This document shows positions 8,700 through 56,547 of a stretch of DNA of 64,000 nt, piece after piece (position 1 is the first letter of the stretch; every line of letters starts with the position of its first letter). The position numbers were made by a program, and so were the translations under genes. Origin of the DNA: an uncultured Thalassobacter sp. (GTDB taxonomy: Bacteria; Pseudomonadota; Alphaproteobacteria; Rhodobacterales; Rhodobacteraceae); the NCBI GenBank assembly GCA_963922715.1, contig CAWUJT010000001.1:9430-73429 (forward strand), given 5' to 3'. Below the pieces are notes generated by a model. The model ran no database searches, was not told where the DNA came from, and saw only the letters and a list, made by a program, of their open reading frames with translations.

Positions 8700-8755
8700 G
8701 GCGCCAGCTCAATCTTGTATCCTTCTATTCCAATCCTTGCAAGGGAGGATGCTTC

Positions 8756-9574
8756 ATGGCGTCTTATAACGAAATCACAGTATCAACTTTATTGCGATTG
8801 GTGGGGACACCCATGTGTCCTAACCTGATCGATGTGCGCATCGACGAAGACTTTGATGCAGACCCGCATCTTATTCCCGGTGCTTTTCGACATCCATTTA
8901 CCGATGTGGCTGCTCTGGCTTCTAATTTTCGAGAACAAAGTGTCATTGTCTATTGCCAGAAGGGCTTGAAGATAAGCCAAGGTGCGGCGGCAATTCTAAG
9001 AGCACAGGGTGTTCAGGCCGAAATTCTGCAAGGCGGTCAATTCGCATGGCGTGATGCTGGGCTGCCAATGGTTTTGGCTGAAAAGCTTCCTCCGCTCGAT
9101 GAAAATGGACGCACTGTCTGGGTTACACGGCACCGCCCAAAAATTGACCGCATCGCCTGCCCATGGTTGATCCGGCGCTTTATTGACCCGCGTGCCAGAT
9201 TCCTTTTCGTCTCTCCGGGACAGGTCATGCATGTTGCTGAACGGTTCGACGCAACCCCATTTGATATAGAAGACGTGTATTGGAGCCATCGTGGAGATAC
9301 ATGTACATTTGATACAATGATCGAAGAATTTGGTATCGGGCACGAGGCACTTAAGCGATTGGCGGTGATTGTGCGCGGTGCTGACACCAACAAGCATGAT
9401 TTGGCCCCGGAAGCGGCGGGGCTCTTGGCGGCATCTCTTGGATTGTCGCGTATGTTCCGGGACGACCTCGAACAACTCGACGCCGGGATGTTGTTGTATG
9501 ACAGCTTCTATAGATGGGCGCGTGATGCGACGGAGGAAGGTCATGATTGGCCCGCAACATCGGGTCGGGTTTAA
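8756..9574 (+). CDS. Rhodanese-domain / chromate-resistance (ChrB C-terminal-like) protein
   Basis: The ATG at 8756 is preceded by AGGGAGGA. The N-terminal ~110 aa are rhodanese-like (VIVYCQKGLKISQGAA). The C-terminal part, with DRIACPWLIRRFIDPRARFLFV, resembles the Chrome_Resist domain. It lies immediately upstream of chrA. Confidence 0.7.
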   Translation: MASYNEITVSTLLRLVGTPMCPNLIDVRIDEDFDADPHLIPGAFRHPFTDVAALASNFREQSVIVYCQKGLKISQGAAAILRAQGVQAEILQGGQFAWRDAGLPMVLAEKLPPLDENGRTVWVTRHRPKIDRIACPWLIRRFIDPRARFLFVSPGQVMHVAERFDATPFDIEDVYWSHRGDTCTFDTMIEEFGIGHEALKRLAVIVRGADTNKHDLAPEAAGLLAASLGLSRMFRDDLEQLDAGMLLYDSFYRWARDATEEGHDWPATSGRV

Positions 9575-9577
9575 AGC

Positions 9578-10873
9578 ATGTCCGACATAAGTATTGAAAA
9601 ATCAAGCGCAGCTCCAAGCTTGGCAGAAGCAACCCGCGTCTGGTGGAAAATCGGGGTTTTGTCATTTGGTGGTCCAGCCGCACAAATCGCATTGATGCAT
9701 AAGGAAGTTGTCGAAGAACATGGCTGGCTGTCGGAACAACAGTATCTGAACGCCCTCAGCTTCTGCATGTTGCTACCCGGACCAGAGGCAATGCAACTGG
9801 CCACCTATGTTGGATGGCGTCTGCACGGAATCTGGGGTGGATTGATAGCTGGCCTGCTATTTGTCTGCCCCGGGGCCGTCGTCATCATGGCGCTGGCGGC
9901 AATTTACAGTCTTCTTGGCGACGTGCCACTGGTCAGCGCATTCTTCTATGGGATCAAGGCGGCTGTCTTGGTCATTGTCCTAGAAGCACTGTTACGTATT
10001 TCGAAGAAGGCGCTTACACAAAACGCGCACTGGATCATCGCGGGAATGGCTTTTATTGGGATCTTCTTTTTGTCTATCCCTTATCCCATCATCGTCGCCC
10101 TGGCCGCATTTTGGGGGTGGTTCAATGGAGACGAAGATAAGACAAGAACAGTTGTTGCTGACACCGAACTGGTTCCAATAGGCCGCACATTCAGAACGAT
10201 CCTGATATGGCTAGCCATTTGGGCGCTGCCATTCTTTGTTTTGTGGGTTTCAGATGCAAGCCAAATCCTTATCGAAATCGGCATCTTCTTCTCTACCCTT
10301 GCAGTTGTAACTTTCGGTGGCGCATACGCCGTTCTCGCCTACATGGCACAGGACGTGGTGATGCAATTCGGCTGGCTGTCAGCAGGCGAGATGGTTGATG
10401 CTTTGGGCCTGGCCGAGACAACACCCGGCCCGCTTATCCTTGTTACGCAATTTGTTGGTTTTGTAGCGGGGTTCAAAGAAGGTGGGATGCTCTTGGCATT
10501 GGGTGCCGCTTTTGTGGCGCTCTGGGTAACCTTTGCCCCCTGTTTCTTGTGGATATTTTCAGGGGCTCATTACATTGAATGGATATCGAACCAACCCAGA
10601 TTGCGCGGCGCACTCAAAGCGATCACCGCTGCGGTGGTAGGTGTCATCCTGAATCTGTCTATCTGGTTCAGCCTCCACGTGCTGTTCGCTGATGTCCAGA
10701 AAGAGCAATGGGGTTTGCTCACCCTCTGGCTGCCGGTGTTCTCCTCAATTGAATGGCTGGCACTGGGTCTGTTTATCTTGAACAGTATTTTGGTGTTTCG
10801 ATTTCACTGGGACATCTTAAAAATACTGCTTCTTTCTGCGCTGATTGGCAGCGGAATACATCTTCTTCTTTAA
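9578..10873 (+). CDS. chrA: Chromate ion transporter (CHR family)
   Basis: A 431-aa polytopic membrane protein with two homologous halves. The FGGPAAQIALMH and TFGGAYAVLAYM motifs are characteristic of ChrA. Confidence 0.88.
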   Translation: MSDISIEKSSAAPSLAEATRVWWKIGVLSFGGPAAQIALMHKEVVEEHGWLSEQQYLNALSFCMLLPGPEAMQLATYVGWRLHGIWGGLIAGLLFVCPGAVVIMALAAIYSLLGDVPLVSAFFYGIKAAVLVIVLEALLRISKKALTQNAHWIIAGMAFIGIFFLSIPYPIIVALAAFWGWFNGDEDKTRTVVADTELVPIGRTFRTILIWLAIWALPFFVLWVSDASQILIEIGIFFSTLAVVTFGGAYAVLAYMAQDVVMQFGWLSAGEMVDALGLAETTPGPLILVTQFVGFVAGFKEGGMLLALGAAFVALWVTFAPCFLWIFSGAHYIEWISNQPRLRGALKAITAAVVGVILNLSIWFSLHVLFADVQKEQWGLLTLWLPVFSSIEWLALGLFILNSILVFRFHWDILKILLLSALIGSGIHLLL

Positions 10874-27620: not shown

Positions 27621-30239
27621 ATGGCAAAGAAAATGCTTATAGATGCTACACATCCCGAAGAGACGCGGGTTGTGGTAGCCGATGGAAACAAAGTCGACGA
27701 GTTTGATTTTGAAACTATTAATAAACGCCAGCTTGTTGGGAATATTTATCTGGCAAAAGTCACGCGTGTAGAGCCGTCTCTACAAGCAGCATTTGTGGAT
27801 TATGGAGGAAACCGCCATGGATTTTTGGCGTTTTCTGAAATACATCCCGATTACTATCAAATTCCCAAAGCGGATCGAGATGCGCTTTTGGCAGAAGAAA
27901 TCGCGGAAGCCGAGGCTTCAAAACCCGAAGAGCATACTCAGTCAGGCGAAGGCGACGTTTCAAATAAGTCAGACCATCGTGGCGACGAAGACGTCAATCT
28001 AGAAGTACAAAATAAAAAAGAAGCTGGCACAGAGAACGACGTTTCCGCTGATACAGCAAATGGCGCAAAGGCTCACAATGTTCCTGCAGATACAGGACTT
28101 GGTGATAGTACAATTACACAAGACCCAGAAACCAGTATTGACGTTTCATCAGGCCTTGAAATCGGAGCTTCAGATGAACAGCTGAGCAAAAATCTCACAA
28201 AACCTGATACTATTCTAGGAATGGATATTGTTGAAATCGTTGAAGACTCACACGAAAGTATCGAGTTTTCCGAAGAAAACGCGCAATCTAAAAATATAGA
28301 TGAGCCTGCAGAGGATTTGATAGATGAAGTATCCGCAGATGACCTGGACCAAGATGAAATACGTCCTGTGCGCCGTTTGCGGACACGTCGATACAAAATT
28401 CAAGAAGTTATAAAAGTTCGGCAAATCATGTTGATTCAAGTCGTCAAAGAAGAGCGTGGAAACAAGGGTGCGGCGCTTACAACATATCTCAGCCTTGCGG
28501 GACGATACTGTGTACTTATGCCCAACACGGCGCGGGGTGGGGGCATCAGCCGCAAAATCACCCACGCTTCTGATCGAAAGAAACTCAAAGAAATTGCTGC
28601 AGACATCGATGTGCCAAAAGATGTGGGCCTGATTATTCGTACAGCAGGCGCAAAACGCTCCAAAACAGAGATTAAACGTGATTATGAATATCTACAGCGT
28701 CAATGGGAGCAGATCAGAGACTTAACGCTCAAGTCTATTGCACCTGCGCCAATATATGAAGAAGGGGATCTTATCAGACGTTCTATTCGCGATCTTTATA
28801 CACGCGAAATCGATGAAGTTTTGGTCGAAGGTGAAACAGGATATCGCCAAGCTAAAGATTTCATGAAAATGATCATGCCATCGCATGCTAAAAATGTGAA
28901 ACCGTATACGGAAAGAATGCCTCTTTTTACCCGCTATCAAGTTGAAAGTTATCTTTCCGATATGTTTAATCCGAGAGTCCAACTGAGATCAGGTGGGTAT
29001 ATTGTCATTGATGTGACAGAAGCGCTTGTTGCCATTGATGTAAATTCTGGAAAGGCCACGAAACAAGGCTCGATTGAAGAAACTGCTCTAAAGACAAATC
29101 TCGAAGCGGCTGTAGAAGTTGCGCGTCAACTACGTCTTAGGGATCTTGCTGGGTTAATCATTATTGATTTTATAGATATGGATGAGAGACGCAATAATAC
29201 GGCTGTCGAGAAACGTATTAAAGAAGCTCTTCAAACAGATCGTGCGCGGATTCAAGTCGGTCGTATTTCAGGCTTTGGGCTCATGGAAATGTCACGTCAA
29301 CGCTTGCGCCCGGGTATGATTGAAGCAACCACCCAGTCCTGTCCTGCCTGCCATGGAACGGGTTTGGTGCGCTCTGGTGACAGTATTGCTCTGCAAATCT
29401 TGCGTACATTAGAAGAAGAGGGCACACGTGGACAAACCGATGAAATCGTTTTAAAAGTGCCAGTCCAAGTTGCTAATTTTATTATCAACCAAAAACGAGC
29501 GCATTTAACGCAGATCGAAGAACGCTATAAAATAGCTGTGAGCATTGTTGCTGACCCTCATTTGGTTGTGCCAGATTACGAGATGGAAAAAATAAAGAAT
29601 ACCAGCCGTATATCTTCTAAACAAAGCCCATCAATCGTTTCTGTTGACAGTTCATTTATTGACGACACTCGAGAACAAAACACAGATCTTGAAGAAGAAG
29701 TTGCAGAAGGAACCGAAGAAGAGAAAACCAAACCACGACGTCGTAGGCGATCGCGTCGTCGCGGAAAAGCAACGACTGAGCTGGTTGAAAATTCTGATAC
29801 AAATAATACCGATAAAAAAGATACGGCCAATTCAACCGATGAAGAAATTCAAATTGCGGCAGACAAAAATCCAGCGGAAAAGAGCAGTTCTACTAGACCC
29901 AAACGCCGGCGTAATAAAAAACCTCAGCATATTGATGATAAAACAGAAACAGAAGTTTCTAAATCTGCCCAATTAAACGCTGCGTCTGACAGTGACGCGC
30001 CTGATGTTCAATCCAAAAATATGGAAAATGTTTCTCAGGGGTTGACCGTCACACAGTCCAAATCAAAGCCGCGCCAACGCGCAAAAGCGCCAGCCACAGA
30101 AGATATATCAGATATTGCATTATCACAGATAGAATCTCCCCCTCAAACTCACCAACAGGATATCTCATCTAATGATACACGTACGAAAGTGTCGAACGAA
30201 GAACCAAAAGCGAAACGTCTAGGCTGGTGGCGGCGGTAA
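27621..30239 (+). CDS. rne: Ribonuclease E
   Basis: An 872-aa ORF starting MAKKMLIDATHPEETRVVVADGNKVDEFDFE. The S1 domain is interrupted by a ~190-aa acidic insert. The catalytic core has VAIDVNSGKAT and the Zn-link CPACHGTG. An Arg-rich segment KPRRRRRSRRRGK is present, and the protein ends LGWWRR. Confidence 0.96.
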   Translation: MAKKMLIDATHPEETRVVVADGNKVDEFDFETINKRQLVGNIYLAKVTRVEPSLQAAFVDYGGNRHGFLAFSEIHPDYYQIPKADRDALLAEEIAEAEASKPEEHTQSGEGDVSNKSDHRGDEDVNLEVQNKKEAGTENDVSADTANGAKAHNVPADTGLGDSTITQDPETSIDVSSGLEIGASDEQLSKNLTKPDTILGMDIVEIVEDSHESIEFSEENAQSKNIDEPAEDLIDEVSADDLDQDEIRPVRRLRTRRYKIQEVIKVRQIMLIQVVKEERGNKGAALTTYLSLAGRYCVLMPNTARGGGISRKITHASDRKKLKEIAADIDVPKDVGLIIRTAGAKRSKTEIKRDYEYLQRQWEQIRDLTLKSIAPAPIYEEGDLIRRSIRDLYTREIDEVLVEGETGYRQAKDFMKMIMPSHAKNVKPYTERMPLFTRYQVESYLSDMFNPRVQLRSGGYIVIDVTEALVAIDVNSGKATKQGSIEETALKTNLEAAVEVARQLRLRDLAGLIIIDFIDMDERRNNTAVEKRIKEALQTDRARIQVGRISGFGLMEMSRQRLRPGMIEATTQSCPACHGTGLVRSGDSIALQILRTLEEEGTRGQTDEIVLKVPVQVANFIINQKRAHLTQIEERYKIAVSIVADPHLVVPDYEMEKIKNTSRISSKQSPSIVSVDSSFIDDTREQNTDLEEEVAEGTEEEKTKPRRRRRSRRRGKATTELVENSDTNNTDKKDTANSTDEEIQIAADKNPAEKSSSTRPKRRRNKKPQHIDDKTETEVSKSAQLNAASDSDAPDVQSKNMENVSQGLTVTQSKSKPRQRAKAPATEDISDIALSQIESPPQTHQQDISSNDTRTKVSNEEPKAKRLGWWRR

Positions 30240-30437
30240 GATTTTAAAATGTTATATGACTGACATAAAATCTCTATACGCCTTAAATCATAAATTCTCC
30301 GAATTGTCGTGTATGTTTTGAATATGACACTCTACAAATGACTTCTGTGCGACATGAATGTTGGCTTCATCAAACGTTGTGTTTAATGTTCATTAAAAGA
30401 CGGTAAAATTATTTCTAGTCTTACAAGGCTGAGCAGT

Positions 30438-31643
30438 ATGGTTGCATTAGATCTCAAACAGGACGCTAAATTTTCCCAACCCACCCGCCAGATCATCTCA
30501 ATGATCCTTGTACTGCTGTCGGTTGGAGCGGGGCTTTACGTTGCTTATCCAACTCTTGAAACTGTTTTTGAAGCGAACCCATACCTAAACGGTTTGATCG
30601 TCGTTGTATTTATTCTTGGTGTTATCGCTTGTTTCTGGCAAGTTATTCAATTGTTTTCATCTGTGGTCTGGATTGAAGCTTTTGCGCAAGATCGTATTGG
30701 CTTTGACTTAACGAAGGTTCCAAGCCTTCTTGCCACATTGTCAGGAGTGAAGCGTAGGCGCGGAACTTACTTTCAGATGAACACAAGTTCCGCTCGTTCG
30801 ATACTCGACTCTGTTGCACAGCGTATGGAAGAGGCGCGCGATATAACCCGGTACATCATCAATTTATTGATTTTTCTTGGTCTCTTAGGAACATTTTATG
30901 GGCTCGCCACAACGGTTCCGGCGGTCGTTGACACAATTCGTTCGCTAGAACCTGACGCGGATGAGCAAGGTATGGCTGTATTTGGGCGTTTGATTGGTGG
31001 GTTAGAAGATCAGCTTTCAGGCATGGGAACAGCTTTTGCTTCATCCCTTTTAGGATTGGCTGGTTCGCTTATTGTAGGCTTGCTTGAACTTTTTGCGGGC
31101 CACGGACAAAATCGCTTTTATCGGGAACTTGAAGAATGGCTTAGTTCAATAACCCGCATTGGGATCATTTCAGGTGAAGGCGAAGATACACTGGACAAGT
31201 ATTCCATCGCAACCGTGATTGATCACATGAATTATCAGATTGAACAGCTTCAGGAAGTGGTGGTAAAATCAGAAGCTGCACGTACAAAATCTGATGAAAA
31301 CTTGGCAGAACTTACAGACGCTGTCGGCAGAATTAGCACTCAAATCAGTACATGGGGCTCTTTGACCAAAGCAATGGAACGCGTTGCACATGGTCAAGAA
31401 AACATTGTCTCCGTTCTTCAAACCACCGGTGGGAAGGAAGGCGGTCTTGATGCAGAAAGCCGTATGAGGATACGGTCCATTGATGTCCAGCTTCTCAAAA
31501 TTTTTGAAGAAATGGCATCTGGGCGCCTGCATGCAATAGATGAAATACGTGGAGAAATGAGCGATCTGACCCGTAGCTTGAATCAACTGACACGTCTGGC
31601 GCGCGCAAGCCAAATGAAGGCCAGTGCTGAGCTAGAGGAGTAA
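30438..31643 (+). CDS. MotA/TolQ/ExbB-type proton-channel family protein with a ~180-aa C-terminal helical extension
   Basis: A 401-aa ORF with four predicted TM segments. The last two (LLIFLGLLGTFYGLATTVPAV and GMGTAFASSLLGLAGSLIVGLLELF) carry the MotA_ExbB signature. The tail is rich in E, Q, L and R. Confidence 0.75.
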   Translation: MVALDLKQDAKFSQPTRQIISMILVLLSVGAGLYVAYPTLETVFEANPYLNGLIVVVFILGVIACFWQVIQLFSSVVWIEAFAQDRIGFDLTKVPSLLATLSGVKRRRGTYFQMNTSSARSILDSVAQRMEEARDITRYIINLLIFLGLLGTFYGLATTVPAVVDTIRSLEPDADEQGMAVFGRLIGGLEDQLSGMGTAFASSLLGLAGSLIVGLLELFAGHGQNRFYRELEEWLSSITRIGIISGEGEDTLDKYSIATVIDHMNYQIEQLQEVVVKSEAARTKSDENLAELTDAVGRISTQISTWGSLTKAMERVAHGQENIVSVLQTTGGKEGGLDAESRMRIRSIDVQLLKIFEEMASGRLHAIDEIRGEMSDLTRSLNQLTRLARASQMKASAELEE

Positions 31644-31646
31644 GTT

Positions 31647-34139
31647 ATGGCACTGTCTCGCCGCAGCACGACGCGCTTTACCGCGAATGTGTGGCCAGGC
31701 TTTGTGGATGCAATGACTGCCTTGTTGCTTGTCTTGATGTTTGTGCTTTCCATTTTTATGATCGTTCAATTCATCCTATCAGAAACAATCTCGGATCAAG
31801 ATACGGAACTTGATCGTCTGAGCGATGAAATAACATCTCTTGCGCAAGAACTCGGATTGGAACAACAACGCGGGTTTAACCTTGAGACTCAAATCATTGA
31901 TCTCACACAGGAACGCAACCGTCAGCAAGCTCTGATTGCGACGTTACGTACACAATCAAGCGATCTCCAGGCGCGCGTTGCCAGCTTTGAAGAACAGGTC
32001 GCAGGATTGCTTGCCGAGCGCAGCAATTTGCAGACACAGCTGGCAAGTACACAACAAAGTTTGACTGAGACAACACAGACACTCGAAGAGACACAAAACC
32101 GCTTGACAGCCTCTAACACTGAAGTCACCCAGTTGATCGGCGCACAAGAAGCCTTGCAATTGGCACTTGCGCGCGCGCGCGACGAGATTGACGCACAAGT
32201 GGAAGCCGCGCGCCTTGCAGCCGCCGAGCGTGAGGCTATGGAGGCGCTTATTGCCGATCTGCAAAGCGATATTGCCGAAACAGAAATATCCTTGGCCCAG
32301 ACACTTGCCGCCCTCACAGAAAGCACAAATCAAGTTGGGACACTTTCAACCCAACTTGAGGCTATGCAGGCAGAGCTTTCGGAGGAAGAAAAAGCGCGGC
32401 TTGCAGAGGTCGCCGCCGCCGAGGCTTTACGAAACGAACTCGCCACTGTCAGGGAAGGGTTGAGCGCACAAGAACAGGCGCGGCTTGCGGAAGCGGCCGC
32501 TGCCGAACAGTTACGCAATCGCTTAGAAAACGCAGAGGCAGAACTTACCGCAATGACACTTGCGCTTGAAGAACAGCGTCAAAAAGCCGAAGAAACGCTT
32601 ATCTTGTTGGCCGCCGCCGAAACACAGCAAGAGGACCTTACGGCGCAATTGGCGCAAGCATTATTAGAGCTTGAAAGCACAGAACTTGCAGCTGCTGCAG
32701 TGAAGCAGAATGCAGATTTACGGCTGGCAGAGCTTTTGGCGGAACTGCGTGCGGCGCGAAACCAGTCCAACGAGCAGGCTTCAGCGGCAAGAGATACACA
32801 AATGCGTCTCAACGAAACGCGCGCGCGTTTGGAAATATCACGCGCTGAAATGGCGTCCGCTCTGGATACTGTAAATGAACTCGACCAACGTCTGACAACC
32901 GCACAGGCTGCGTTAGCCGCTACCGAAAGAAACGCGCAAAACTTGTCTTTAAAGGTGCAAAGCTTGGAGATGCAATTGGCCGTGGCTCAGCAAGCACCAG
33001 CGCGGGACGATGGCAGTGCACCAGATGCTTCTGTTCAGGCTGAACTGCAGAGGCGCTTGGACGATGTTCTCAGCGATAGAAACAGGCTGACAAGCATAAA
33101 TCAAAATCTCGAGGCTGAGATAGCTACTTTACGCGTTCAACAAAGACAAGAACAGCAGGAAAGGACAAATCTTCGGGAAGCGCTTGAAGCGGCTATCGCG
33201 GCAGAACTCGCTCAGCTAGATGCATTGGAGACCACACAGGAAGATCTTGCCGCCGCGCTTGCTGCCCGATTGGCGGCTGAACGGGAAACCGATAAAGCTT
33301 TAACGGTAGCAGAACAGCGGGCTGTGTTACTTGCGCAAGCTGAAACCGCTCTTTCTGAAGCGGAGGACGATGTATTAGCTGCGCGACGCGACGCGGCACT
33401 TCTTAATGAACAACTGCGCGAACTGCGTGCACAACTTCGCGCTTTATCTGTGACCTTAGACGTTTATCAATCTCAGGATGAAGAAAAACAGGTCCAGATT
33501 GAAAACCTCAGCTCACGGCTTAACACGGCCCTTGCACGTGTCGCCGAAGAGCAACGTCAGCGTGCGGAAGCAGCTGAAGACATACTTGCCTTGCAAAGAG
33601 AGTTAGACAGCGAGCGGCTCTTAAGACTGGAAGCAGAGGCTGATTTGCTGGCTGAGCTTGAGAAAGAAAACGAAGCCCTCAGCCGCGCACAGTCAGAATT
33701 CTTTGGGCAATTGCGTGATATTTTTGAAAATCAAGACGGCGTTGAAATTGTGGGTGACAGATTTGTCTTTCGCTCAGAAGTTCTCTTTCCTTTAGGCGGG
33801 GCGGAGTTGTCAGCAGATGGACGTGATGAAATCGCAAAAGTGGCGGGAATACTACAAGAGGCATCGGCACGTATCCCTCCGGAAATCAATTGGGTGTTAC
33901 AGGTCAACGGTCATACAGATAATGTCCCTGTCTCAAGTACGAACCGCTACAAAAACAACTGGGAGTTGAGCCAAGCGCGGGCCTTGTCCGTTGTGATTTA
34001 TCTGATTGAAGAGCTTGGCTTGCCACCTGACCGCTTGTCTGCGAATGGATTTGGTGAATATCAACCCATCAATTTTGCAGACACGCCGGAAGCACGGGCG
34101 CAGAACCGTAGGATTGAATTGAAGTTTACTCAGAGATAA
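31647..34139 (+). CDS. MotB-like protein: N-terminal plug/TM with a conserved Asp, a ~640-residue coiled coil, and a C-terminal OmpA-like peptidoglycan-binding domain
   Basis: An 830-aa ORF starting 3 nt after the preceding gene, with a GAGGAG Shine-Dalgarno sequence. The N-terminus is WPGFVDAMTALLLVLMFVL (Asp codon at 31707-31709). The centre is A/E/L/Q-rich with heptad character. The C-terminus is NGHTDNVPV...NWELSQARALSVVIYL...NRRIELKF (OmpA/MotB C-terminal motif). Confidence 0.8.
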   Translation: MALSRRSTTRFTANVWPGFVDAMTALLLVLMFVLSIFMIVQFILSETISDQDTELDRLSDEITSLAQELGLEQQRGFNLETQIIDLTQERNRQQALIATLRTQSSDLQARVASFEEQVAGLLAERSNLQTQLASTQQSLTETTQTLEETQNRLTASNTEVTQLIGAQEALQLALARARDEIDAQVEAARLAAAEREAMEALIADLQSDIAETEISLAQTLAALTESTNQVGTLSTQLEAMQAELSEEEKARLAEVAAAEALRNELATVREGLSAQEQARLAEAAAAEQLRNRLENAEAELTAMTLALEEQRQKAEETLILLAAAETQQEDLTAQLAQALLELESTELAAAAVKQNADLRLAELLAELRAARNQSNEQASAARDTQMRLNETRARLEISRAEMASALDTVNELDQRLTTAQAALAATERNAQNLSLKVQSLEMQLAVAQQAPARDDGSAPDASVQAELQRRLDDVLSDRNRLTSINQNLEAEIATLRVQQRQEQQERTNLREALEAAIAAELAQLDALETTQEDLAAALAARLAAERETDKALTVAEQRAVLLAQAETALSEAEDDVLAARRDAALLNEQLRELRAQLRALSVTLDVYQSQDEEKQVQIENLSSRLNTALARVAEEQRQRAEAAEDILALQRELDSERLLRLEAEADLLAELEKENEALSRAQSEFFGQLRDIFENQDGVEIVGDRFVFRSEVLFPLGGAELSADGRDEIAKVAGILQEASARIPPEINWVLQVNGHTDNVPVSSTNRYKNNWELSQARALSVVIYLIEELGLPPDRLSANGFGEYQPINFADTPEARAQNRRIELKFTQR
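32394..32525 (+). repeat. Intragenic duplication inside the coiled-coil gene: a ~45-nt segment repeated with an 84-nt (28-codon) offset
   Basis: GCGCGGCTTGCAGAGGTCGCCGCCGCCGAGGCTTTACG at 32394 aligns with GCGCGGCTTGCGGAAGCGGCCGCTGCCGAACAGTTACG at 32478. At the protein level this is ARLAEVAAAEALRNEL versus ARLAEAAAAEQLRNRL. I counted roughly 65% identity over 48 nt, higher over the first 30. Confidence 0.5.
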
Positions 34140-35157
34140 GGCGTGTGGTTGTTTGCAACCCGTCGATTTTTTCACCGTTGCGCCAAAGGTCAATTTCGCC
34201 GCGATAAATACCTACAGGCATAACGCGCCCGCGAAGACGTCTTCCTGCCGCGCGGAAAGCCTGGGCTTGGGAGCGGTCAATGTCGATACGCCTTTGGAAT
34301 ACTGGCTCATCATTAGGTCCAAAGATGCGCATGTCCAATGTATCGCCCGCACGTGTCCCAAAGAGATAGGCCCAAAGCACCAACGCCCCGGCGGGCGTTG
34401 ACAAGGTCTCTGAGTGTGCTGAGCCCGCTTTAACATCTGCATAGTCTGGTACAGCGTCTGAAAACCCTACTGTCAAAAGACCGCCTGGAATGTAATCAGG
34501 CGTTTCCACCCAAAGAGTGCGCGCGGCTTCCATACATGCAGCGCCTTGCCAAGGCACAAATGGGTCAACAACAGTATCATCGTGCCGGACAATGAACTCT
34601 AGGTGTGGAAATTCCGTAAATCCTGACAGTCCTATATCACCAAGCCGCATTCCGGTTTCAACGGGGTCACCGGGTTGGACAGAAACAGAGCCCTTTTTGA
34701 GATGGCAGTACTGTGTGCGCCATCCGTTGTCATGCTCAATCACAACGCCATTACCACAGCCTTTGCCGCTAAGGGCGGCCCGACGTTCAGGTGTTAGATA
34801 AGCGTCTTCGATCCCATCCCGTACAGCGCGCACAGTACCATTCGCGGCAGCCAGAACCGATATACCATTTATCATGCCTTCAAGATCTAGTGCACGAATA
34901 TCTGTGCCGGCATGTCCATCATAACTGAGCTTATTGCCCATAAAATCGGCATAATCGGGACCGGGCTCCTGATCGACATATTGCTGGATCACACATTGAT
35001 CTCCGTTGATACACTCTACCGGCCAGGCCAACTCGATACCCGTCGAGGCAACATCGCACAAGTGCTCTTCTGCAGACAGTGGTTCTATCGTAAAACTAAT
35101 GGCCCCCAGGACAAACACGGGGATCATTGTAATCTTCTGTATCACATAGACATTCAT
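34126..35157 (-). CDS. Secreted M23-family metallopeptidase
   Basis: A 343-aa ORF with an N-terminal signal-like segment MIPVFVLGAISFTIEPLSA. M23 motifs are present: HAGTDI, then GWRTQYCHLKKGSV and GLSGFTEFPHLEF. Its ATG overlaps the clpA stop (ATGA). Confidence 0.8.
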   Translation of the reverse strand: MNVYVIQKITMIPVFVLGAISFTIEPLSAEEHLCDVASTGIELAWPVECINGDQCVIQQYVDQEPGPDYADFMGNKLSYDGHAGTDIRALDLEGMINGISVLAAANGTVRAVRDGIEDAYLTPERRAALSGKGCGNGVVIEHDNGWRTQYCHLKKGSVSVQPGDPVETGMRLGDIGLSGFTEFPHLEFIVRHDDTVVDPFVPWQGAACMEAARTLWVETPDYIPGGLLTVGFSDAVPDYADVKAGSAHSETLSTPAGALVLWAYLFGTRAGDTLDMRIFGPNDEPVFQRRIDIDRSQAQAFRAAGRRLRGRVMPVGIYRGEIDLWRNGEKIDGLQTTTRLISE

Positions 35158-53052: not shown

Positions 53053-54384
53053 TCAGTCCTTCAGCTCAAGAATGCCGTGTAGCTGAGAGAAACTTTCCTC
53101 AATAGATTGCGGTCCTGGTTGGCCAAATAAACCGTCAAGTTTATCTTGCGCGCGTATTGCAGCATCAATTTTTAGATCGCTGCCGCTTACATAAAGTCCG
53201 GATTGTATCATCAGCTCGGCACGTTCATAGGTGCTCAGCAAGTGACGCGCTTGTGTCAGAAGTGTGTTTTCCTCGGGCGTCGCAACCCCAGGCAGTGCGC
53301 GCGAGACAGAGCGCAAAACATCAATCGCCGGGTAGCGGCCACGTTCTGCGATACTCCGGCTCAGCACCACATGGCCATCGATAAGCCCCCGCAAAATGTC
53401 TGCAACAGGTTCTTCCATATCGGATCCCGCCACAAGGACAGAGAAAACGGCTGTGATGTCGCCTGTTGCGCCCGTACCACCTGGCCCCGCGCGTTCAACA
53501 ATCTGTGCCAAGGCATGTGTCAGACTGGATGGAAAGCCGTTGAGGTTTGCCGCCTCGCCCGAGGCCACGGCCACTTCCCGGTGCGCTTCAGCGAACCGTG
53601 TGATACTGTCGGCAAGAAACAGAACATGGGCACCCTGATCTCGAAAAAATTCCGCCACAGTGATCGCAAGTTCAATCGCTTTGCGTCGAATGCCAGGGGC
53701 TTGGTCAGATGTCGCGACAATGACAACCGTCCGTTTCAGGGCCTCTTCGCCTAAGATCGTGTGCAGAAACTCCCCCACTTCCCGACCCCGTTCGCCAATC
53801 AAAGCAACCACGGTCACATCGGTTTCAACGTGCCGGGCAAGGCTGCCAAGAAGCGTGGACTTACCGACCCCTGATCCCGCGAATAATCCAATCCTTTGAC
53901 CACGGGCCAGCGGCAAGAACATATCCATGACCGGAAGCCCCGTTTCAATCCGGTCCCCCATAGGGCGACGGGTGTGCGCCGGTGGTGGCGGAGCTGAGAG
54001 CGTGACTGTGTCAGCACCCGGCCAAAGAGGCCGTCTATCCAGCGGCTCCCCAAAAGGATTGATCACACGTCCCAGCCAACTGCGATCGGGGGCGATGCGT
54101 GGCAGCCCGATCCACCGCACGGGCGCTTTCAAAGGGATGCCGGTGAGCGGCGCGAAAGGTACAGCCGTTGCCGTGTCCGCCCCAAGCCGGGTGATCTCAG
54201 CCCGAAGTGGTTTTTGCGACGGGATCAAAATCTCAACCTCATCTCCCAGATGGATCATGTGAGACAATCCTGTGATCTGAACAGCATTTCCCGCAACCGC
54301 ATGGACATGACCCAGGTGTTGGACCGCCGTCGTTGTTCCAATACGGGCGCGCAACGGCATGAAGACGTTTTCGATTTGTGTCAT
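53053..54384 (-). CDS. fliI: Flagellum-specific ATPase FliI
   Basis: A 443-aa ORF with Walker A GSGVGKSTLLG and Walker B VLFLADSITR. It has F1-beta-like architecture and is divergent from flgB. Confidence 0.92.
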   Translation of the reverse strand: MTQIENVFMPLRARIGTTTAVQHLGHVHAVAGNAVQITGLSHMIHLGDEVEILIPSQKPLRAEITRLGADTATAVPFAPLTGIPLKAPVRWIGLPRIAPDRSWLGRVINPFGEPLDRRPLWPGADTVTLSAPPPPAHTRRPMGDRIETGLPVMDMFLPLARGQRIGLFAGSGVGKSTLLGSLARHVETDVTVVALIGERGREVGEFLHTILGEEALKRTVVIVATSDQAPGIRRKAIELAITVAEFFRDQGAHVLFLADSITRFAEAHREVAVASGEAANLNGFPSSLTHALAQIVERAGPGGTGATGDITAVFSVLVAGSDMEEPVADILRGLIDGHVVLSRSIAERGRYPAIDVLRSVSRALPGVATPEENTLLTQARHLLSTYERAELMIQSGLYVSGSDLKIDAAIRAQDKLDGLFGQPGPQSIEESFSQLHGILELKD

Positions 54385-54468
54385 TTGCCGCCCCTTTTCG
54401 CGTTTCTAACCTTTCCTAAACGAATCGCTCTTAAAGCGAAGTTGATACAATTTGGCGGAGAACCGCGG

Positions 54469-54849
54469 ATGTTTGAAAGATTGAGCTTGTTTTCAATGGC
54501 GCAGAATATGGCCACCCATGCCGCTGCACGCCAGAACGTCATTGCCCAAAACGTCACCAATAGCGACACACCCGGATATAAGGCACAGGACCTTACGGCG
54601 CTTTCCCAGCCCTCAGAAGCGACCTTCCAGATGCGCCGCACCGCACCGCAACATCTCTTGGGCACCACACAGGCACAATGGCATCGGATCGAGATCGCAG
54701 GACAGGCCGATCCCAATGGAAACACCGTTTCTTTGGAAGAGGAGGTCTTACGCTCTGTTGACGCTGCGCGCGCACACAATCGCGCGCTGACAATCTATCA
54801 AAGCTCCCTAGGGATTTTGCGCAGCGCGCTTGGCCGGAGCGGAGGGTAA
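54469..54849 (+). CDS. flgB: Flagellar basal-body rod protein FlgB
   Basis: MFERLSLFSMAQNMATHAAARQNVIAQNVTNSDTPGYKAQDL is present. The 5' extension in the ORF track (54214) runs antisense into fliI and is rejected. Confidence 0.88.
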   Translation: MFERLSLFSMAQNMATHAAARQNVIAQNVTNSDTPGYKAQDLTALSQPSEATFQMRRTAPQHLLGTTQAQWHRIEIAGQADPNGNTVSLEEEVLRSVDAARAHNRALTIYQSSLGILRSALGRSGG

Positions 54850-54852
54850 GCC

Positions 54853-55245
54853 ATGGCTGGATTTTCCCAAACTTTTGACATTCTTGCCAGCGGACTGCGC
54901 GCCCAAGCCACCCGGTTGCGCCATGTCTCTGAGAACATCGCCAATACCGACACGCCTGGCTACAGGGGCAAAACGGTCAGTTTTATGCCGGATTATCGTC
55001 CCGATGTTCCTGAAGGAAGTGTGCGGACAGGACAGGTGCAACTTGATCAAAGCACATTGCCGCGTATTTATGATCCCGCGCATCCGATGGCCAATGCGGA
55101 CGGGTATTATGACGGCTCAAACGTTAATTTGATGCTCGAACTCGCCGATGCGCGTGAGGCGCAGCGATCTTACGAGGCCAGCCTCAAAATGTTTGAGCAA
55201 ACGCGCCGGATGTCCTCGGCGATTATGGAAATTCTGAAAAGATAG
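54853..55245 (+). CDS. flgC: Flagellar basal-body rod protein FlgC
   Basis: A 130-aa ORF with SGLRAQATRLRHVSENIANTDTPGYR and C-terminal ASLKMFEQTRRM. Confidence 0.92.
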   Translation: MAGFSQTFDILASGLRAQATRLRHVSENIANTDTPGYRGKTVSFMPDYRPDVPEGSVRTGQVQLDQSTLPRIYDPAHPMANADGYYDGSNVNLMLELADAREAQRSYEASLKMFEQTRRMSSAIMEILKR

Positions 55246-55254
55246 AGCGTAACG

Positions 55255-55539
55255 ATGGATATCAAATCTACATTGGCGCACCGCGCCTATAGCGAAACGT
55301 TTGCGCCAAAACCGCAAACGAAAGAAAGCAAAGAGGCCGACTTTACGCAAATCGCCCAAAGTTTTGCCGAGACTGTGCAACGGGGTGAGGCACAAGCCAA
55401 AGCGGCGCTTACAACACAAGCCGATCCCCATGCGCTTGTCACAGCTTTGGCGGAAACAAAGCTGGCTGTCGATACGGCTGTCACGGTGCGCGACAAAGTT
55501 GTTGAGGCGTATCAAGAAATTTTAAGGATGCAAGTCTGA
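55255..55539 (+). CDS. fliE: Flagellar hook-basal body complex protein FliE
   Basis: A 94-aa ORF with C-terminal AVDTAVTVRDKVVEAYQEILRMQV. Confidence 0.88.
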   Translation: MDIKSTLAHRAYSETFAPKPQTKESKEADFTQIAQSFAETVQRGEAQAKAALTTQADPHALVTALAETKLAVDTAVTVRDKVVEAYQEILRMQV

Positions 55540-55805
55540 TGGATGAAATCATCTTCTTTGATACACTGCGCCAAGCCTTATGGGCTTCAGTCATTGTCTC
55601 ATTGCCAATTTTGTTGACAGCGCTTGTTGTCGGGGTTGCCATTGGTCTGGTCCAAGCTTTGACCTCTGTTCAAGAGATGACGTTGACCTTTGTGCCGAAG
55701 CTCGGCGCAATGCTGATCGTGTTCTGGGCCGTTATGGGTTTCATGTCCGACACCCTGAACGATTTCTTCCGTGTCGAAATTTTACCCATGATTGAGGTCA
55801 TTTGA
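55539..55805 (+). CDS. fliQ: Flagellar type III export apparatus protein FliQ
   Basis: An 88-aa, two-TM protein with GLVQALTSVQEMTLTFVPKL. Confidence 0.9.
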   Translation: MDEIIFFDTLRQALWASVIVSLPILLTALVVGVAIGLVQALTSVQEMTLTFVPKLGAMLIVFWAVMGFMSDTLNDFFRVEILPMIEVI

Positions 55806-56522
55806 ATGTCTCAAGGTGTCTATTCTGTTTTGGCCCGGCAAAGCGGGCTAATGCGTGAAATCGATATTGTGGCCAATAATATCGCCAATGCAAACACCAC
55901 TGGGTTTCGTGCAGAGGCTATGATATTTTCAGAATTTCTTGAAACACTAGACCCAGCGTCATCTTTGTCTATGGGGGCCGGACATGGAAAGATGATAAAA
56001 TTGGCCCAGGGCGCTTTGGAGGCAACGGGTGGAACCTTTGACTTTGCGATTGAAGGTGAAGGGTTTTTTCAAGTCGAGGCCGTAACGGGCCCACAGATCA
56101 CACGTACCGGTGCTTTCCTACGCAATAATTTCGGAGAGCTTGTCACCCCCGCAGGCGCGCGGCTTCTGGATGTTGGCGGTATTCCCGTTTTCGTCCCCCC
56201 CGACGCGCAAGATGTGTTTTTGGCTCCTGACGGCACATTGAGTGCAGATGGGCAACCTTTGGCTTTGATCGGGCTTGTGCAACCTTTGGACCCGGGACAA
56301 CTTCAACGCGTGGGTGACACGGCATTTGTCGCGGAGGCTGGGGTTGAGCCAATATTTGAGGGCCGTGTCTTGCAAGGCTATCTAGAGGCCTCAAACGTTG
56401 ATCCCGTTAGTGAAGTTGCCCGCATGATCGCAGTCCAACACGCCTATGAAATGGGGCAGGCCTTTCTGCAACGCGAAGACGAGCGATTGAAATCTATCAC
56501 CACCCTGATTGACGGGTCTTAA
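55806..56522 (+). CDS. flgF: Flagellar basal-body rod protein FlgF
   Basis: A 238-aa ORF with IVANNIANANTTGFRAE and C-terminal LEASNVDPVSEVARMIAVQHAYE. Confidence 0.88.
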   Translation: MSQGVYSVLARQSGLMREIDIVANNIANANTTGFRAEAMIFSEFLETLDPASSLSMGAGHGKMIKLAQGALEATGGTFDFAIEGEGFFQVEAVTGPQITRTGAFLRNNFGELVTPAGARLLDVGGIPVFVPPDAQDVFLAPDGTLSADGQPLALIGLVQPLDPGQLQRVGDTAFVAEAGVEPIFEGRVLQGYLEASNVDPVSEVARMIAVQHAYEMGQAFLQREDERLKSITTLIDGS

Positions 56523-56547
56523 TCGGATGTAAAAGGAGTGTAATGCG

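What the first reader, a model, noticed from the sequence alone, without database searches (positions are those of the whole stretch)
30438..34139. Orphan MotA/ExbB-like + MotB/OmpA-like gene pair with a giant coiled coil in the B subunit: candidate uncharacterised ion-driven envelope machine
What the sequence shows:
- Two genes are separated by 3 nt, and the second has its own GAGGAG Shine-Dalgarno sequence.
- Gene 1 (401 aa) has four TM segments. The last two carry the MotA/TolQ/ExbB channel signature (LGLLGTFYG and GMGTAFASSLLGLAG). A ~180-aa helical tail follows.
- Gene 2 (830 aa) begins like a MotB/ExbD-type partner. It has a short cytoplasmic N-terminus and a TM helix with the invariant Asp (WPGFVDAMTALLLV, Asp codon 31707-31709).
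- Gene 2 ends in a canonical OmpA/MotB peptidoglycan-binding domain (NGHTDN...NWELSQARA...NRRIELKF).
- About 640 residues of A/E/L/Q-rich heptad-like sequence separate those two ends.

What established knowledge adds: 5:2 stator-type motors (MotAB, PomAB, ExbBD, TolQR, AglRQS, GldLM, Zorya ZorAB) use exactly this A/B logic. In none of those I can recall does the B subunit carry a several-hundred-residue coiled coil. In Zorya it is the A subunit that has the long tail.

Inference: the pair is 20 kb from the flagellar cluster in this window and is much larger than a flagellar stator. It is flanked by rne and clpA. It therefore looks like a distinct proton-motive-force-coupled envelope device of unknown output.
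Basis: partly seen in the sequence, partly recalled or inferred. Interest (0 to 1): 0.8.

Follow-up and report, generated by a model that had tools for sequence, protein, structure and literature searches.

The report
Conserved stator-like motor with coiled-coil stalk
Two adjacent genes encode what looks like an uncharacterised ion-driven membrane motor, related to ExbB/TolQ/ZorA and MotB, that many Alphaproteobacteria keep as a core chromosomal module and whose wall-anchoring subunit carries a periplasmic coiled coil of very variable length.

Summary
Gene A (30438-31643, 401 aa) has four TM helices and a 185-aa helical tail. Gene B (31647-34139, 830 aa) has one TM helix with Asp21, about 636 aa of heptad coil and an OmpA-type peptidoglycan-binding domain.

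A is a remote member of the 5:2-motor A-subunit class. All 70 family members tested hit ZorA profiles and 37 of 70 hit Pfam MotA_ExbB. A confident AlphaFold model matches only TolQ, ExbB and ZorA chains, never MotA or PomA. Thr152 aligns with the channel threonine of TolQ and ExbB.

B passes NCBIfam PRK09039 ("peptidoglycan-binding protein"), a family that is catalogued but uncharacterised.

The pair is adjacent in 79 of 80 Rhodobacterales loci and in all 7 other loci examined. These include Magnetospirillum, Sinorhizobium and five unnamed contigs, with different neighbours. It has its own conserved promoter-like element and no phage or true plasmid copies.

B's ends are invariant but its coil ranges from 151 to 933 aa, so the giant coil is a lineage-specific expansion.

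It is not a flagellar stator, Zorya, Tol or Ton. It is most likely a peptidoglycan-anchored A5B2 ion-driven motor with a housekeeping role. No publication on it was found.

The parts
30361..30389 (+). Conserved promoter-like element of the A-B module: -35 TTGGCT (30361-30366), 17-nt spacer, -10 TAATGT (30384-30389). It ends 48 nt before the A start codon.
   Evidence: The pattern TTGG[CT]-N17-19-TAnnnT occurs within 120 nt upstream of A in 40 of 53 orthologous loci. Shuffles give a mean of 0.29 and a maximum of 3. It is kept although the upstream gene differs (rne here, chaC in relatives). Sequence read. The simple sigma-70 scan did not flag it.
30438..31643 (+). Gene A, 401 aa: four-TM protein of the ExbB/TolQ/ZorA fold (putative pentameric rotor/channel subunit) with a cytoplasmic helical tail.
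   Evidence: ORF. PADLOC ZorA1 E 4.7e-10, and 70 of 70 family members hit it. Pfam MotA_ExbB is hit by 37 of 70 members. AF2 pLDDT is 80.7. The Foldseek top 49 hits are all TolQ, ExbB or ZorA.
30873..30905 (+). A residues 146-156, FLGLLGTFYGL, in TM3: first channel-lining helix motif. Thr152 is encoded at 30891-30893.
   Evidence: F146-F153, G155 and L156 are invariant in 70 sequences. hhalign places Thr152 on TolQ T145 and ExbB T148.
31020..31067 (+). A residues 195-210, GMGTAFASSLLGLAGS, in TM4: second channel-lining helix motif. Ser203 is encoded at 31044-31046.
   Evidence: G195, M196, F200, S203, L204, G206, L207, G209 and S210 are invariant in 70 sequences. The equivalence of Ser203 to ExbB T181 is my manual alignment and therefore an inference.
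31086..31640 (+). A residues 217-401: cytoplasmic helical tail. Predicted helices are 178-244 (continuing from TM4), 254-330 and 339-400. The conserved patch DAESRMRIRSIDVQLLKIFEE (338-358, nt 31449-31511) follows the Gly-rich turn.
   Evidence: Secondary structure. R346 and D349 are invariant, and D338 and R342 are at least 90% conserved, across Rhodobacterales and Rhodospirillales-type members. Charge counts place loop 71-139 in the cytoplasm, which puts the tail there too.
31635..31640 (+). GAGGAG Shine-Dalgarno sequence for gene B, inside the last codons of gene A. The 3-nt gap suggests translational coupling.
   Evidence: Sequence. The A-B gap is typically 3 nt, range -1 to 12, across the 73 orthologous loci tabulated.
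31647..34139 (+). Gene B, 830 aa: MotB/ZorB-type subunit, a member of NCBIfam PRK09039.
   Evidence: NF006542 scores 664.5 bits against a cutoff of 388. The C-terminus matches MotB and PomB chains in the PDB, for example 6ysf at E 1.2e-15.
31692..31778 (+). B residues 16-44: WPGFVDAMT... TM helix carrying Asp21 (31707-31709), the presumed ion-binding residue.
   Evidence: W16, P17, G18, F19, V20, D21 and A22 are at least 95% identical in 77 B proteins. The motif is present in every intact orthologue. It matches the MotB pattern W..AYADFMTA.
31779..33686 (+). B residues 45-680: periplasmic heptad coiled-coil stalk. Proximal (45-120) and distal (560-640) parts are conserved, with variable internal blocks between them (for example 381-500).
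   Evidence: Composition and 3.5-residue periodicity. Conservation and occupancy map. Coil length is 151-933 aa across homologues. No DNA tandem repeats.
33687..34136 (+). B residues 681-830: constant C-terminal module. It comprises the SEFFG..LR junction, GDRFVF.SEVLF and the OmpA-type peptidoglycan-binding domain (GHTD758, NWELS..R778A, NRRIE).
   Evidence: Pfam OmpA E 1.1e-15. The module is always 146-148 aa. Invariant residues are listed.

Best explanation
The two genes encode a two-component inner-membrane machine of the 5:2 ion-driven rotary-motor class.

Proposed mechanism:
- Five copies of A form a ring whose TM3 and TM4 helices line an ion path; Thr152 and Ser203 are the candidate hydroxyl residues.
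- The ring surrounds two copies of the B TM helix, which carry the ion-binding Asp21.
- Directly after the membrane, the two B chains continue as a dimeric coiled-coil stalk in the periplasm.
- The stalk ends in a constant 146-148-aa module with an OmpA-type domain, which fixes B to peptidoglycan.
- Ion flow then turns the A ring, together with its roughly 10-nm cytoplasmic helical tail, relative to the wall-anchored B dimer.

The module has its own promoter, is translationally coupled and is vertically inherited on chromosomes of Rhodobacterales, Rhodospirillales-type bacteria and Rhizobiaceae. It therefore most likely serves a housekeeping envelope function rather than motility or phage defence.

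Shown here: homology and fold of A, the family membership and domain layout of B, conservation of the key residues, gene linkage and phyletic spread.

Inferred: 5:2 stoichiometry, ion coupling, rotation, which side carries the output, and the physiological role.
For: A subunit:
- All 70 members hit the PADLOC ZorA1 profile (best E 1.6e-16), and 37 of 70 hit Pfam MotA_ExbB. No unrelated family recurs.
- The template-free AF2 model has pLDDT 80.7, with the TM core above 90.
- The Foldseek top 49 PDB hits are exclusively TolQ, ExbB and ZorA chains at probabilities 0.82-1.0. Hit 50 drops to 0.25.
- Invariant Thr152 aligns to TolQ T145 and ExbB T148.

B subunit:
- WPGFVD21A is invariant in 77 homologues, as are the OmpA-type residues D758 and R778.
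- The C-terminus matches MotB and PomB structures.
- The positive-inside rule puts B's N-terminus in the cytoplasm and the coil in the periplasm. It puts A's loop 71-139 and its tail in the cytoplasm.

Linkage and context:
- A and B are adjacent in 79 of 80 loci with a gap of about 3 nt. They are also adjacent in 7 of 7 loci from other lineages with different neighbours.
- A promoter-like element is conserved in 40 of 53 loci, against 0.3 expected.
- There are no phage hits, and the only 'plasmid' hits are chromosome-sized records.
- The family has 2836 representatives at 50% identity.
Against: - There is no experimental evidence of any kind, and no paper on the family was found.
- Sequence similarity to solved A subunits is too weak for HMMER. 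Profiles A1 and A2 hit no MotA, ExbB, TolQ or ZorA chain at E <= 10.
- The window's own A is below the Pfam cutoff: 13.8 bits against 22.9.
- Foldseek E-values are modest (6e-3 to 0.1), with TM-scores of 0.32-0.58.
- A rigid coil of 22-139 nm greatly exceeds the roughly 9 nm between inner membrane and peptidoglycan quoted for E. coli (PMC11946911). A simple perpendicular stator geometry therefore cannot hold.
- A long coiled coil is a poor torque anchor.
- No conserved partner that could receive an output was found.
- The tail patch of A is not evident in S. meliloti.
Confidence: 0.6

Rival explanations
1. PMF-driven periplasmic force transducer working on the Tol/Ton principle. Here the A ring is the stationary part. 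The B dimer turns inside it, over- or under-winding its own coiled coil. This changes the stalk's length or tension and so pulls the inner membrane and the wall (or wall-associated outer-membrane components) together. The output is periplasmic and the A tail only stabilises the ring.
For: - The fold of A is closest to TolQ and ExbB.
- B combines in one chain what TolR (Asp helix) and TolA (long helical periplasmic domain plus C-terminal binding domain) do in two.
- The proximal and distal ends of the coil are conserved and fully occupied, as expected if the stalk is a mechanical element.
- Four of six Rhodospirillales-type loci add a secreted OmpA-domain protein directly upstream.
- A precedent for Asp-helix proteins with large periplasmic domains pairing with TolQ-like rings is proposed in PMC12204202.
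Against: - Coil length varies six-fold. That is hard to reconcile with a distance-matched transducer.
- The C-terminal domain is a peptidoglycan binder, not an outer-membrane protein binder.
- The A tail is retained in every homologue examined, which suggests it matters.
- No TolB, Pal or TonB-box partner is linked.
Confidence: 0.2
2. Zorya-like envelope-perturbation sensor used for anti-phage defence, with effector genes encoded elsewhere or lost.
For: By sequence, the closest profiles for A are ZorA1, ZorA2 and ZorA3. B hits ZorB3 at E 1.1e-22. Like ZorA, A has a cytoplasmic helical tail after the last TM helix (PMC11946911).
Against: - The match to ZorA is confined to the channel helices (A 133-253 against profile positions 104-213 of 683).
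- NCBIfam antiphage_ZorA_4 scores 23.8 bits against a cutoff of 500.
- The tail is 185 aa, against about 507 aa in ZorA (Gly223-Thr729).
- ZorB has no linker between its TM helix and its peptidoglycan-binding domain, whereas B has 151-933 aa.
- No ZorC, ZorD, ZorE, ZorF or ZorG-like gene is seen in any of the 87 loci.
- Housekeeping synteny is stable within orders, and there are no copies on true plasmids or phages. This is unlike defence islands.
Confidence: 0.07
3. An extra flagellar stator (MotAB paralogue), as the automatic label 'flagellar motor protein MotA' on many homologues implies.
For: Database names. B's C-terminus is most similar to MotB and PomB structures. The genome has flagellar genes about 19 kb away.
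Against: - No MotA or PomA chain appears among the top 49 structural hits.
- hhalign against E. coli MotA gives a probability of 1.5%.
- The TM2-TM3 cytoplasmic loop is only 69 aa.
- NCBIfam MotB, MotD and MotS models score 51-92 bits against cutoffs of 264-312.
- The pair never sits in a flagellar or chemotaxis cluster in 87 loci.
- The coil replaces the plug and linker.
- From general knowledge, not tested here: several genera carrying it, such as Jannaschia and Litoreibacter, are described as non-motile.
Confidence: 0.04
4. A passive structural tether. B merely staples the inner membrane to peptidoglycan and A is a membrane chaperone or scaffold. The ion path is vestigial.
For: The long, variable coil and the invariant peptidoglycan-binding residues would suit a tether. 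No output partner was found.
Against: Asp21 in a TM helix, Thr152, Ser203 and the whole of both channel helices are invariant at about 35% overall identity across orders. That is the signature of selection on the ion pathway. A buried TM aspartate is costly unless it is used.
Confidence: 0.09

Closest known systems
Zorya ZorAB (type I; PDB 8QYD, 8VVN; PMC11946911)
   Same: - It gives the best sequence-profile match for A's channel helices: 70 of 70 members.
- ZorA chains are among the top fold hits.
- The B-type partner has a TM Asp and a dimerising OmpA-like peptidoglycan-binding domain.
- A cytoplasmic helical tail follows the last TM helix of A.
   Different: - ZorA has 3 TM helices and a tail of about 507 aa (70 nm). 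A here has 4 hydrophobic helices and a 185-aa tail, predicted as two helices of about 10 nm.
- ZorB's peptidoglycan-binding domain is fused to the TM helix with no linker. B here inserts 151-933 aa of coiled coil.
- There are no ZorC or ZorD effectors here.
- The context is conserved housekeeping synteny, not a defence island.
- The NCBIfam ZorA score is far below its cutoff.
TolQ-TolR-TolA and ExbB-ExbD-TonB (PDB 8ODT, 5SV0, 9DDM)
   Same: - These are the top structural matches for A.
- Thr152 aligns with TolQ T145 and ExbB T148.
- Together, B's Asp helix and long helical periplasmic region resemble TolR plus TolA domain II in one chain.
   Different: - TolQ and ExbB are 230-244 aa with 3 TM helices and no long C-terminal tail.
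- TolR and ExbD are about 140 aa with no OmpA domain.
- The force transducer (TolA or TonB) is a separate protein that targets outer-membrane partners.
- No tolA, tolB, pal or tonB is linked here.
Flagellar stators MotAB / PomAB
   Same: - A-then-B gene order.
- Four-TM topology of A.
- B has an N-terminal TM helix with the W..(Y/F).D..T motif and a C-terminal OmpA-like domain most similar to MotB and PomB.
   Different: - No MotA-type torque-generating cytoplasmic domain.
- No structural hit to MotA or PomA.
- No plug or flexible linker.
- Not in a flagellar cluster.
- The curated MotA and MotB models are not passed.
TolQ-like pentamers paired with vWA proteins carrying a TolR-like Asp helix (proposed in PMC12204202)
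   Same: In both, a B-type Asp helix is fused to a large periplasmic module. The prediction is bioinformatic and awaits experiment.
   Different: The periplasmic module there is a vWA domain aimed at the outer membrane. It is not a coiled coil with a peptidoglycan-binding domain. The lineages and gene contexts also differ.
NCBIfam PRK09039 (NF006542-NF006546) 'peptidoglycan-binding protein'
   Same: B is a bona fide member: 664.5 bits against a cutoff of 388. The short forms pass NF006543.
   Different: The family carries only a generic name. No function, partner or motor context is recorded, and there is no corresponding curated model for A.

Membership tests
5:2 ion-driven motor superfamily (MotA/ExbB/TolQ/ZorA with MotB/ExbD/TolR/ZorB) | A subunit with the MotA_ExbB-type pair of channel helices and the corresponding fold | tested here: met
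   PADLOC ZorA1 hits 70 of 70 members and Pfam PF01618 hits 37 of 70. The Foldseek top 49 hits are all TolQ, ExbB or ZorA. The window protein alone is below the Pfam cutoff.
5:2 ion-driven motor superfamily | B subunit with a single N-terminal TM helix carrying an invariant Asp | tested here: met
   D21 lies in WPGFVDA and is at least 95% identical in 77 homologues. There is a single TM helix.
5:2 ion-driven motor superfamily | Conserved hydroxyl residue of A facing the Asp (TolQ T145 / ExbB T148) | tested here: met
   Invariant Thr152 aligns to those positions in hhalign. Whether it faces the Asp in space was not tested.
5:2 ion-driven motor superfamily | A and B genes adjacent and co-inherited | tested here: met
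   Adjacent in 79 of 80 loci and in 7 of 7 others. The gap is about 3 nt or a 4-nt overlap.
5:2 ion-driven motor superfamily | A5B2 stoichiometry and ion-driven rotation | not testable with these tools
   Only monomer prediction was available. This needs AlphaFold-Multimer, cryo-EM and functional assays.
Flagellar stator MotAB/PomAB | MotA-type cytoplasmic torque-generating domain and MotA fold | tested here: not met
   No MotA or PomA chain among the top 49 fold hits. hhalign probability against E. coli MotA is 1.5%. The TM2-TM3 loop is 69 aa.
Flagellar stator MotAB/PomAB | Passes curated MotB, MotD or MotS models | tested here: not met
   The best, MotD NF006541, scores 92 bits against a cutoff of 283. 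The MotB and MotS models score 51-84 bits against 259-312.
Flagellar stator MotAB/PomAB | Encoded with flagellar or chemotaxis genes | tested here: not met
   The neighbours are rne, M23 and clpA here. Relatives have chaC, or suhB, efp and rpmE. The flagellar genes are 19 kb away.
Zorya ZorAB | Passes the curated ZorA model over its full length, including the long tail | tested here: not met
   NF033917 scores 23.8 bits against a cutoff of 500. The PADLOC match covers only profile positions 104-213 of 683. The tail is 185 aa, against about 507 aa.
Zorya ZorAB | ZorB peptidoglycan-binding domain fused directly to the TM helix | tested here: not met
   151-933 aa of coil intervene. The ZorB anatomy is taken from PMC11946911.
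Zorya ZorAB | Adjacent effector genes (ZorC/D, ZorE or ZorF/G) | tested here: not met
   No such genes appear in the neighbourhoods listed. The PADLOC scan was run on A and B only.
Tol-Pal TolQR / Ton ExbBD | Three-TM A of about 230 aa, B of about 140 aa without an OmpA domain, and a separate TolA or TonB transducer | tested here: not met
   A is 401 aa with 4 hydrophobic helices and a tail. B is 830 aa with an OmpA domain. No tolA, tolB, pal or tonB is adjacent. The fold of the A core is similar.
NCBIfam PRK09039 peptidoglycan-binding protein | Score above the curated cutoff of the equivalog model | tested here: met
   NF006542 scores 664.5 bits against 388 for the window's B. NF006543 scores 438-508 bits against 305 for six short homologues.

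The most novel reading that the evidence does not exclude
This is a core, vertically inherited alphaproteobacterial rotary motor, sister to the ZorAB sensor of Zorya. Its wall-anchoring subunit carries a periplasmic coiled coil of evolvable length (22-139 nm), which acts as a torsional or tension element lying along the wall. The motor would report or correct the mechanical state of the envelope, and the rotating cytoplasmic tail of A would pass that signal to an as yet unknown cytoplasmic partner. That would make it a new functional class of 5:2 motor and a plausible housekeeping relative from which phage-sensing Zorya motors were recruited.
Probability: 0.2. Interest if true: 0.85.

Novelty: new variant of a known kind. 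Interest (0 to 1): 0.6.

Why it matters
Six or seven functional classes of 5:2 ion-driven motors are known: flagellar, Ton, Tol, gliding and type 9 secretion, Agl, and Zorya. Each new class has revealed a new way in which cells spend the proton-motive force across the envelope.

This module is a further, architecturally distinct branch. It is widespread (2836 clusters at 50% identity) and sits in stable housekeeping neighbourhoods in roseobacters, magnetospirilla and rhizobia. It is genetically tractable in several model organisms, yet databases mislabel it as either "ExbB" or "flagellar MotA".

Working out its output would:
- fill a gap in alphaproteobacterial envelope biology;
- test whether ZorAB-type motors have non-defence relatives;
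- explain what a periplasmic coiled coil many times longer than the periplasm is wide is for.

Correcting the "flagellar motor protein MotA" annotation is useful in itself.

Tried and rejected
- HMMER of A against PDB sequences, as a single sequence and as profiles A1 and A2, found only coiled-coil noise and no motor subunit.
- The first AlphaFold run used 26 close homologues and gave pLDDT 59.8. Its Foldseek search was meaningless, returning axonemal and BAR-domain hits. I replaced it with a 70-sequence alignment spanning two orders.
- Tandem-repeat analysis of B found no DNA repeats, so the length plasticity is not recent repeat expansion.
- CtrA-box idea for the AT-rich upstream region: the window has only 1-mismatch sites. 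No orthologous locus has a perfect TTAA-N7-TTAA, and only 3 of 53 have a site with at most one mismatch. Rejected.
- The generic promoter and terminator scan gave nothing specific. Rfam found nothing in or near the locus.
- rne, clpA and M23 as functional partners: rne adjacency occurs only in this genome. clpA, gloB and M23 are convergent and are conserved only within Rhodobacterales (60, 50 and 37 of 80). They are absent from the Magnetospirillum and Sinorhizobium loci, so I treat them as synteny, not partnership.
- The ABC transporter next to B in three loci (L081, L082 and S. meliloti) is divergent or convergent and is absent in Rhodobacterales. I did not pursue it.
- S. meliloti Rgs polar-growth proteins: none corresponds to this pair.
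- Nine literature searches and readings found no description of the family. The searches were made; further readings were.
- Cluster look-ups for taxonomy of distant representatives were mostly unnamed metagenome proteins.

Full report
**1. Check of the observation**

A is 30438..31643 (+, 401 aa) and B is 31647..34139 (+, 830 aa).

The junction reads GAGGAG (31635-31640), TAA (31641-31643), gtt, then ATG (31647). The Asp21 codon is gat at 31707-31709.

A has four hydrophobic helices at about 19-37, 52-70, 140-158 and 198-216. B has one, at 26-44. B residues 46-690 are rich in Ala, Leu, Glu and Gln, and their only prolines are at 451 and 459. The dominant hydrophobic period is 3.51 residues. 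The C-terminus is a Pfam OmpA domain (E 1.1e-15, residues 714-821).

K+R counts give 10 for A loop 71-139, against 0 for loop 38-51 and 2 for loop 159-197. B's N-terminus is basic and is followed by an acidic stretch after the TM helix. By the positive-inside rule, A is N-in with a cytoplasmic tail, and B's coil and OmpA domain are periplasmic.

**2. What A is**

On its own, the window's A is below every curated threshold. Pfam MotA_ExbB gives E 0.048 and 13.8 bits against a cutoff of 22.9. NCBIfam ZorA_4 gives 23.8 bits against 500. It does hit PADLOC ZorA1 at E 4.7e-10 over residues 133-253.

HMMER against PDB sequences finds no motor subunit, whether with the single sequence or with family profiles.

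The family view is clearer. I built a 70-sequence alignment spanning Rhodobacterales and Rhodospirillales-type members, which share about 35% identity. All 70 members hit ZorA1 (best E 1.6e-16), and 37 of 70 hit Pfam MotA_ExbB. No other family recurs.

An AlphaFold2 model made from this alignment, without templates, reaches pLDDT 80.7, with the TM core above 90. A first model from 26 close sequences was poor (pLDDT 59.8) and I discarded it.

Foldseek against the PDB returns 49 consecutive hits that are all TolQ, ExbB or ZorA chains. Their probabilities are 0.82-1.0 and their target-normalised TM-scores are 0.32-0.58. Hit 50 is a BAR domain at probability 0.25. No MotA or PomA chain appears. 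The E-values are modest (6e-3 to 0.1), so what carries the weight is that nothing else is hit, rather than any single score.

hhalign against E. coli proteins fetched from K-12 aligns FLGLLGTF.GL with the TolQ and ExbB signature. This places the invariant Thr152 on TolQ T145 and ExbB T148. MotA gives a probability of 1.5%.

Invariant positions cluster in the two channel helices (146-156 and 195-210, including S203) and in QN.F just below the membrane.

**3. What B is**

B passes NCBIfam NF006542 (PRK09039.1-1, "peptidoglycan-binding protein") at 664.5 bits against a cutoff of 388. The flagellar MotB, MotD and MotS models score 51-92 bits against cutoffs of 259-312. The C-terminal domain is most similar to solved MotB and PomB domains.

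I aligned 77 B proteins. The invariant parts are:
- W16-P-G-F-V-D21-A in the TM helix;
- the junction S683-x-F-F-G and G-D-R-F-V-F-x-S-E-V-L-F;
- the OmpA-type residues GHTD758, NWELS..R778A and NRRIE.

From the SEFF motif to the end the protein is always 146-148 aa. The coil between the TM helix and SEFF ranges from 151 to 933 aa, and is 637 aa here.

The membrane-proximal coil (45-120) and distal coil (560-640) are conserved and fully occupied. Length variation sits in internal blocks; window residues 381-500 have block occupancies of 0.10-0.35. There are no DNA tandem repeats.

As uninterrupted coiled coils these lengths correspond to 22-139 nm. The distance from inner membrane to peptidoglycan quoted for E. 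coli is about 9 nm (PMC11946911).

**4. Linkage, context and spread**

Homologues of A are very numerous. An exhaustive search found 2836 representatives at 50% identity with E <= 1e-3, and 624 with E <= 1e-30.

In 80 Rhodobacterales genome loci, B follows A in 79; the exception is a contig end. The gap is almost always about 3 nt.

Downstream and convergent lie an M23 peptidase (37 of 80), clpA (60 of 80) and a gloB-like gene (50 of 80). Upstream in relatives lie chaC, DUF2125, an extensin-like gene, tyrC and hisC. None of these upstream genes is in the window, where rne sits instead. The synteny break is therefore immediately upstream of the module.

Despite that break, a promoter-like element travels with A. 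The pattern TTGGC(T)-N17-19-TA(GGG)T is present in 40 of 53 loci, against a mean of 0.29 in shuffles. It usually ends 35 nt before the start codon. The window's copy is at 30361-30389.

Outside Rhodobacterales the pair recurs in different neighbourhoods:
- Magnetospirillum aberrantis: A 380 aa and B 339 aa, with a 4-nt overlap.
- Five unnamed alphaproteobacterial or metagenomic contigs: B of 331-481 aa.
- S. meliloti: A 368 aa and B 342 aa, in the order suhB-A-B-ABC(-)-rpmE-DUF1465-DUF1192. Two of the unnamed contigs show the same order.

All six short B proteins pass the sister model NF006543. The family is also common across Rhizobiaceae, and one representative is labelled Nitrococcus, a gammaproteobacterium.

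tblastn finds no phage copy. The only "plasmid" hits are records of 3.5-4.6 Mb that are evidently chromosomes.

**5. Mechanism**

The best-supported reading is an A5B2 ion-driven motor. A forms a ring with Thr152 and Ser203 lining the path. Asp21 of two central B helices is the ion-binding site. The B dimer continues as a coiled-coil stalk to a peptidoglycan-binding head. The A ring, with its cytoplasmic tail, turns relative to the anchored B dimer.

The tail comprises predicted helices 254-330 and 339-400, each about 10 nm long. A patch conserved in Rhodobacterales and Rhodospirillales-type members, ESR.R.RSIDVQ, follows the Gly-rich turn.

The shown steps are homology, fold, conserved residues, topology, linkage and inheritance. 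The inferred steps are stoichiometry, ion coupling, rotation and output.

The main difficulty is geometric. A stalk 2 to 15 times longer than the distance from membrane to wall cannot stand perpendicular, and it is torsionally soft. Either it lies along the wall as a long leash, or it is itself the working element. The second option is the Tol/Ton-like rival, in which rotation of B winds the coil.

Strict conservation of a buried Asp and of both channel helices across orders argues against a purely passive tether.

**6. Comparison with known systems**

- **Flagellar stator:** not a member. It lacks the MotA fold and the torque domain, fails the curated models and is not in a flagellar context.
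- **Zorya:** not a member. Only the channel helices match. The tail is 185 aa rather than about 507 aa. ZorB has no linker where B has a long coil. There are no effector genes, and the context is neither mobile nor a defence island.
- **Tol or Ton:** not a member, because of size, domain content and the lack of TolA, TonB, TolB or Pal, although the fold of the A core is closest to TolQ and ExbB.
- **PRK09039:** B is a true member, but the family has no assigned function.

Recent surveys of MotAB relatives (PMC12505986) and of periplasmic force transducers (PMC12204202) do not describe it. The latter explicitly expects further 5:2 motors to be found.

**7. Verdict**

- The giant coil is a lineage-specific expansion of a variable stalk.
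- B's family is already catalogued, though uncharacterised.
- The rne flank is incidental.

I rate it a new variant of a known kind, with interest 0.6. It is a widespread, tractable and mis-annotated branch of the 5:2 motor class with an unexplained architecture. For now it rests entirely on sequence and predicted structure.

Noticed in passing
L082:5944-6903, L087:4981-5946, L088:4687-5937, L089:4678-5928: In 4 of 6 Rhodospirillales-type loci, a gene for a secreted, Pro-rich protein with a C-terminal OmpA domain (319-416 aa) lies directly upstream of A on the same strand, in the order efp - suhB-like - OmpA gene - A - B. It could be a third component. No NCBIfam model names it, and it is absent from the window and from the S. 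meliloti locus.
   Followed up: partly
window 34126-35157 (-): An M23 peptidase gene converges on B, and the 3' ends overlap by 14 nt (34126-34139). It is next to B in 37 of 80 Rhodobacterales loci but not in other orders. A wall hydrolase beside a wall-binding motor may be coincidence.
   Followed up: partly
homologues: Automatic names for the A family are inconsistent: 'biopolymer transporter ExbB' in Rhodobacterales, and 'flagellar motor protein MotA' or 'MotA/TolQ/ExbB proton channel family protein' in Rhodospirillales and Rhizobiaceae. The evidence here supports neither the MotA label nor the ExbB label.
   Followed up: yes
L090 (CP090106.1): A 3.72-Mb S. meliloti record is titled 'plasmid pSymB' and sits in the plasmid collection, yet it carries rpmE, purE and other core genes. 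Two other hits of 3.5-4.6 Mb are similar. They look like chromosomes filed as plasmids.
   Followed up: no
window 8672-8758 (+) and 8696-10873: An Rfam chrB-a RNA motif (44.6 bits against a gathering score of 43.9) lies at the start of a chrB - chrA (chromate transporter) pair.
   Followed up: no
window 7372-8541 (+) and 27621-30239 (+): There are two RNase E/G-family genes in one window. One is a 389-aa ORF with a partial RNase_E_G match.
   Followed up: no
window 53053-58486: Flagellar genes: a FliI-type ATPase (53053-54384, -), two FlgF/FlgG-type rod proteins (55806-57333, +) and FlgH (57764-58486, +). No MotA or MotB was seen among the ORFs scanned.
   Followed up: partly
L081:5021-6811 (-), L082:9588-11402 (-), L090:8059-9873 (-): An ABC_membrane + ABC_tran gene of about 600 aa lies next to the A-B pair in Magnetospirillum (divergent), and in an unnamed contig and S. 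meliloti (convergent, overlapping the end of B). Whether these are orthologous or relevant was not tested.
   Followed up: no
window B residues 445-465 (nt about 32979-33041): The only two prolines of the 645-residue coil region analysed (residues 46-690) lie in a short Gly/Asp/Ser-rich break (QAPARDDGSAPDAS). The break sits inside the block that most homologues lack. It may be a hinge dividing the stalk into segments of about 400 and 230 residues.
   Followed up: no
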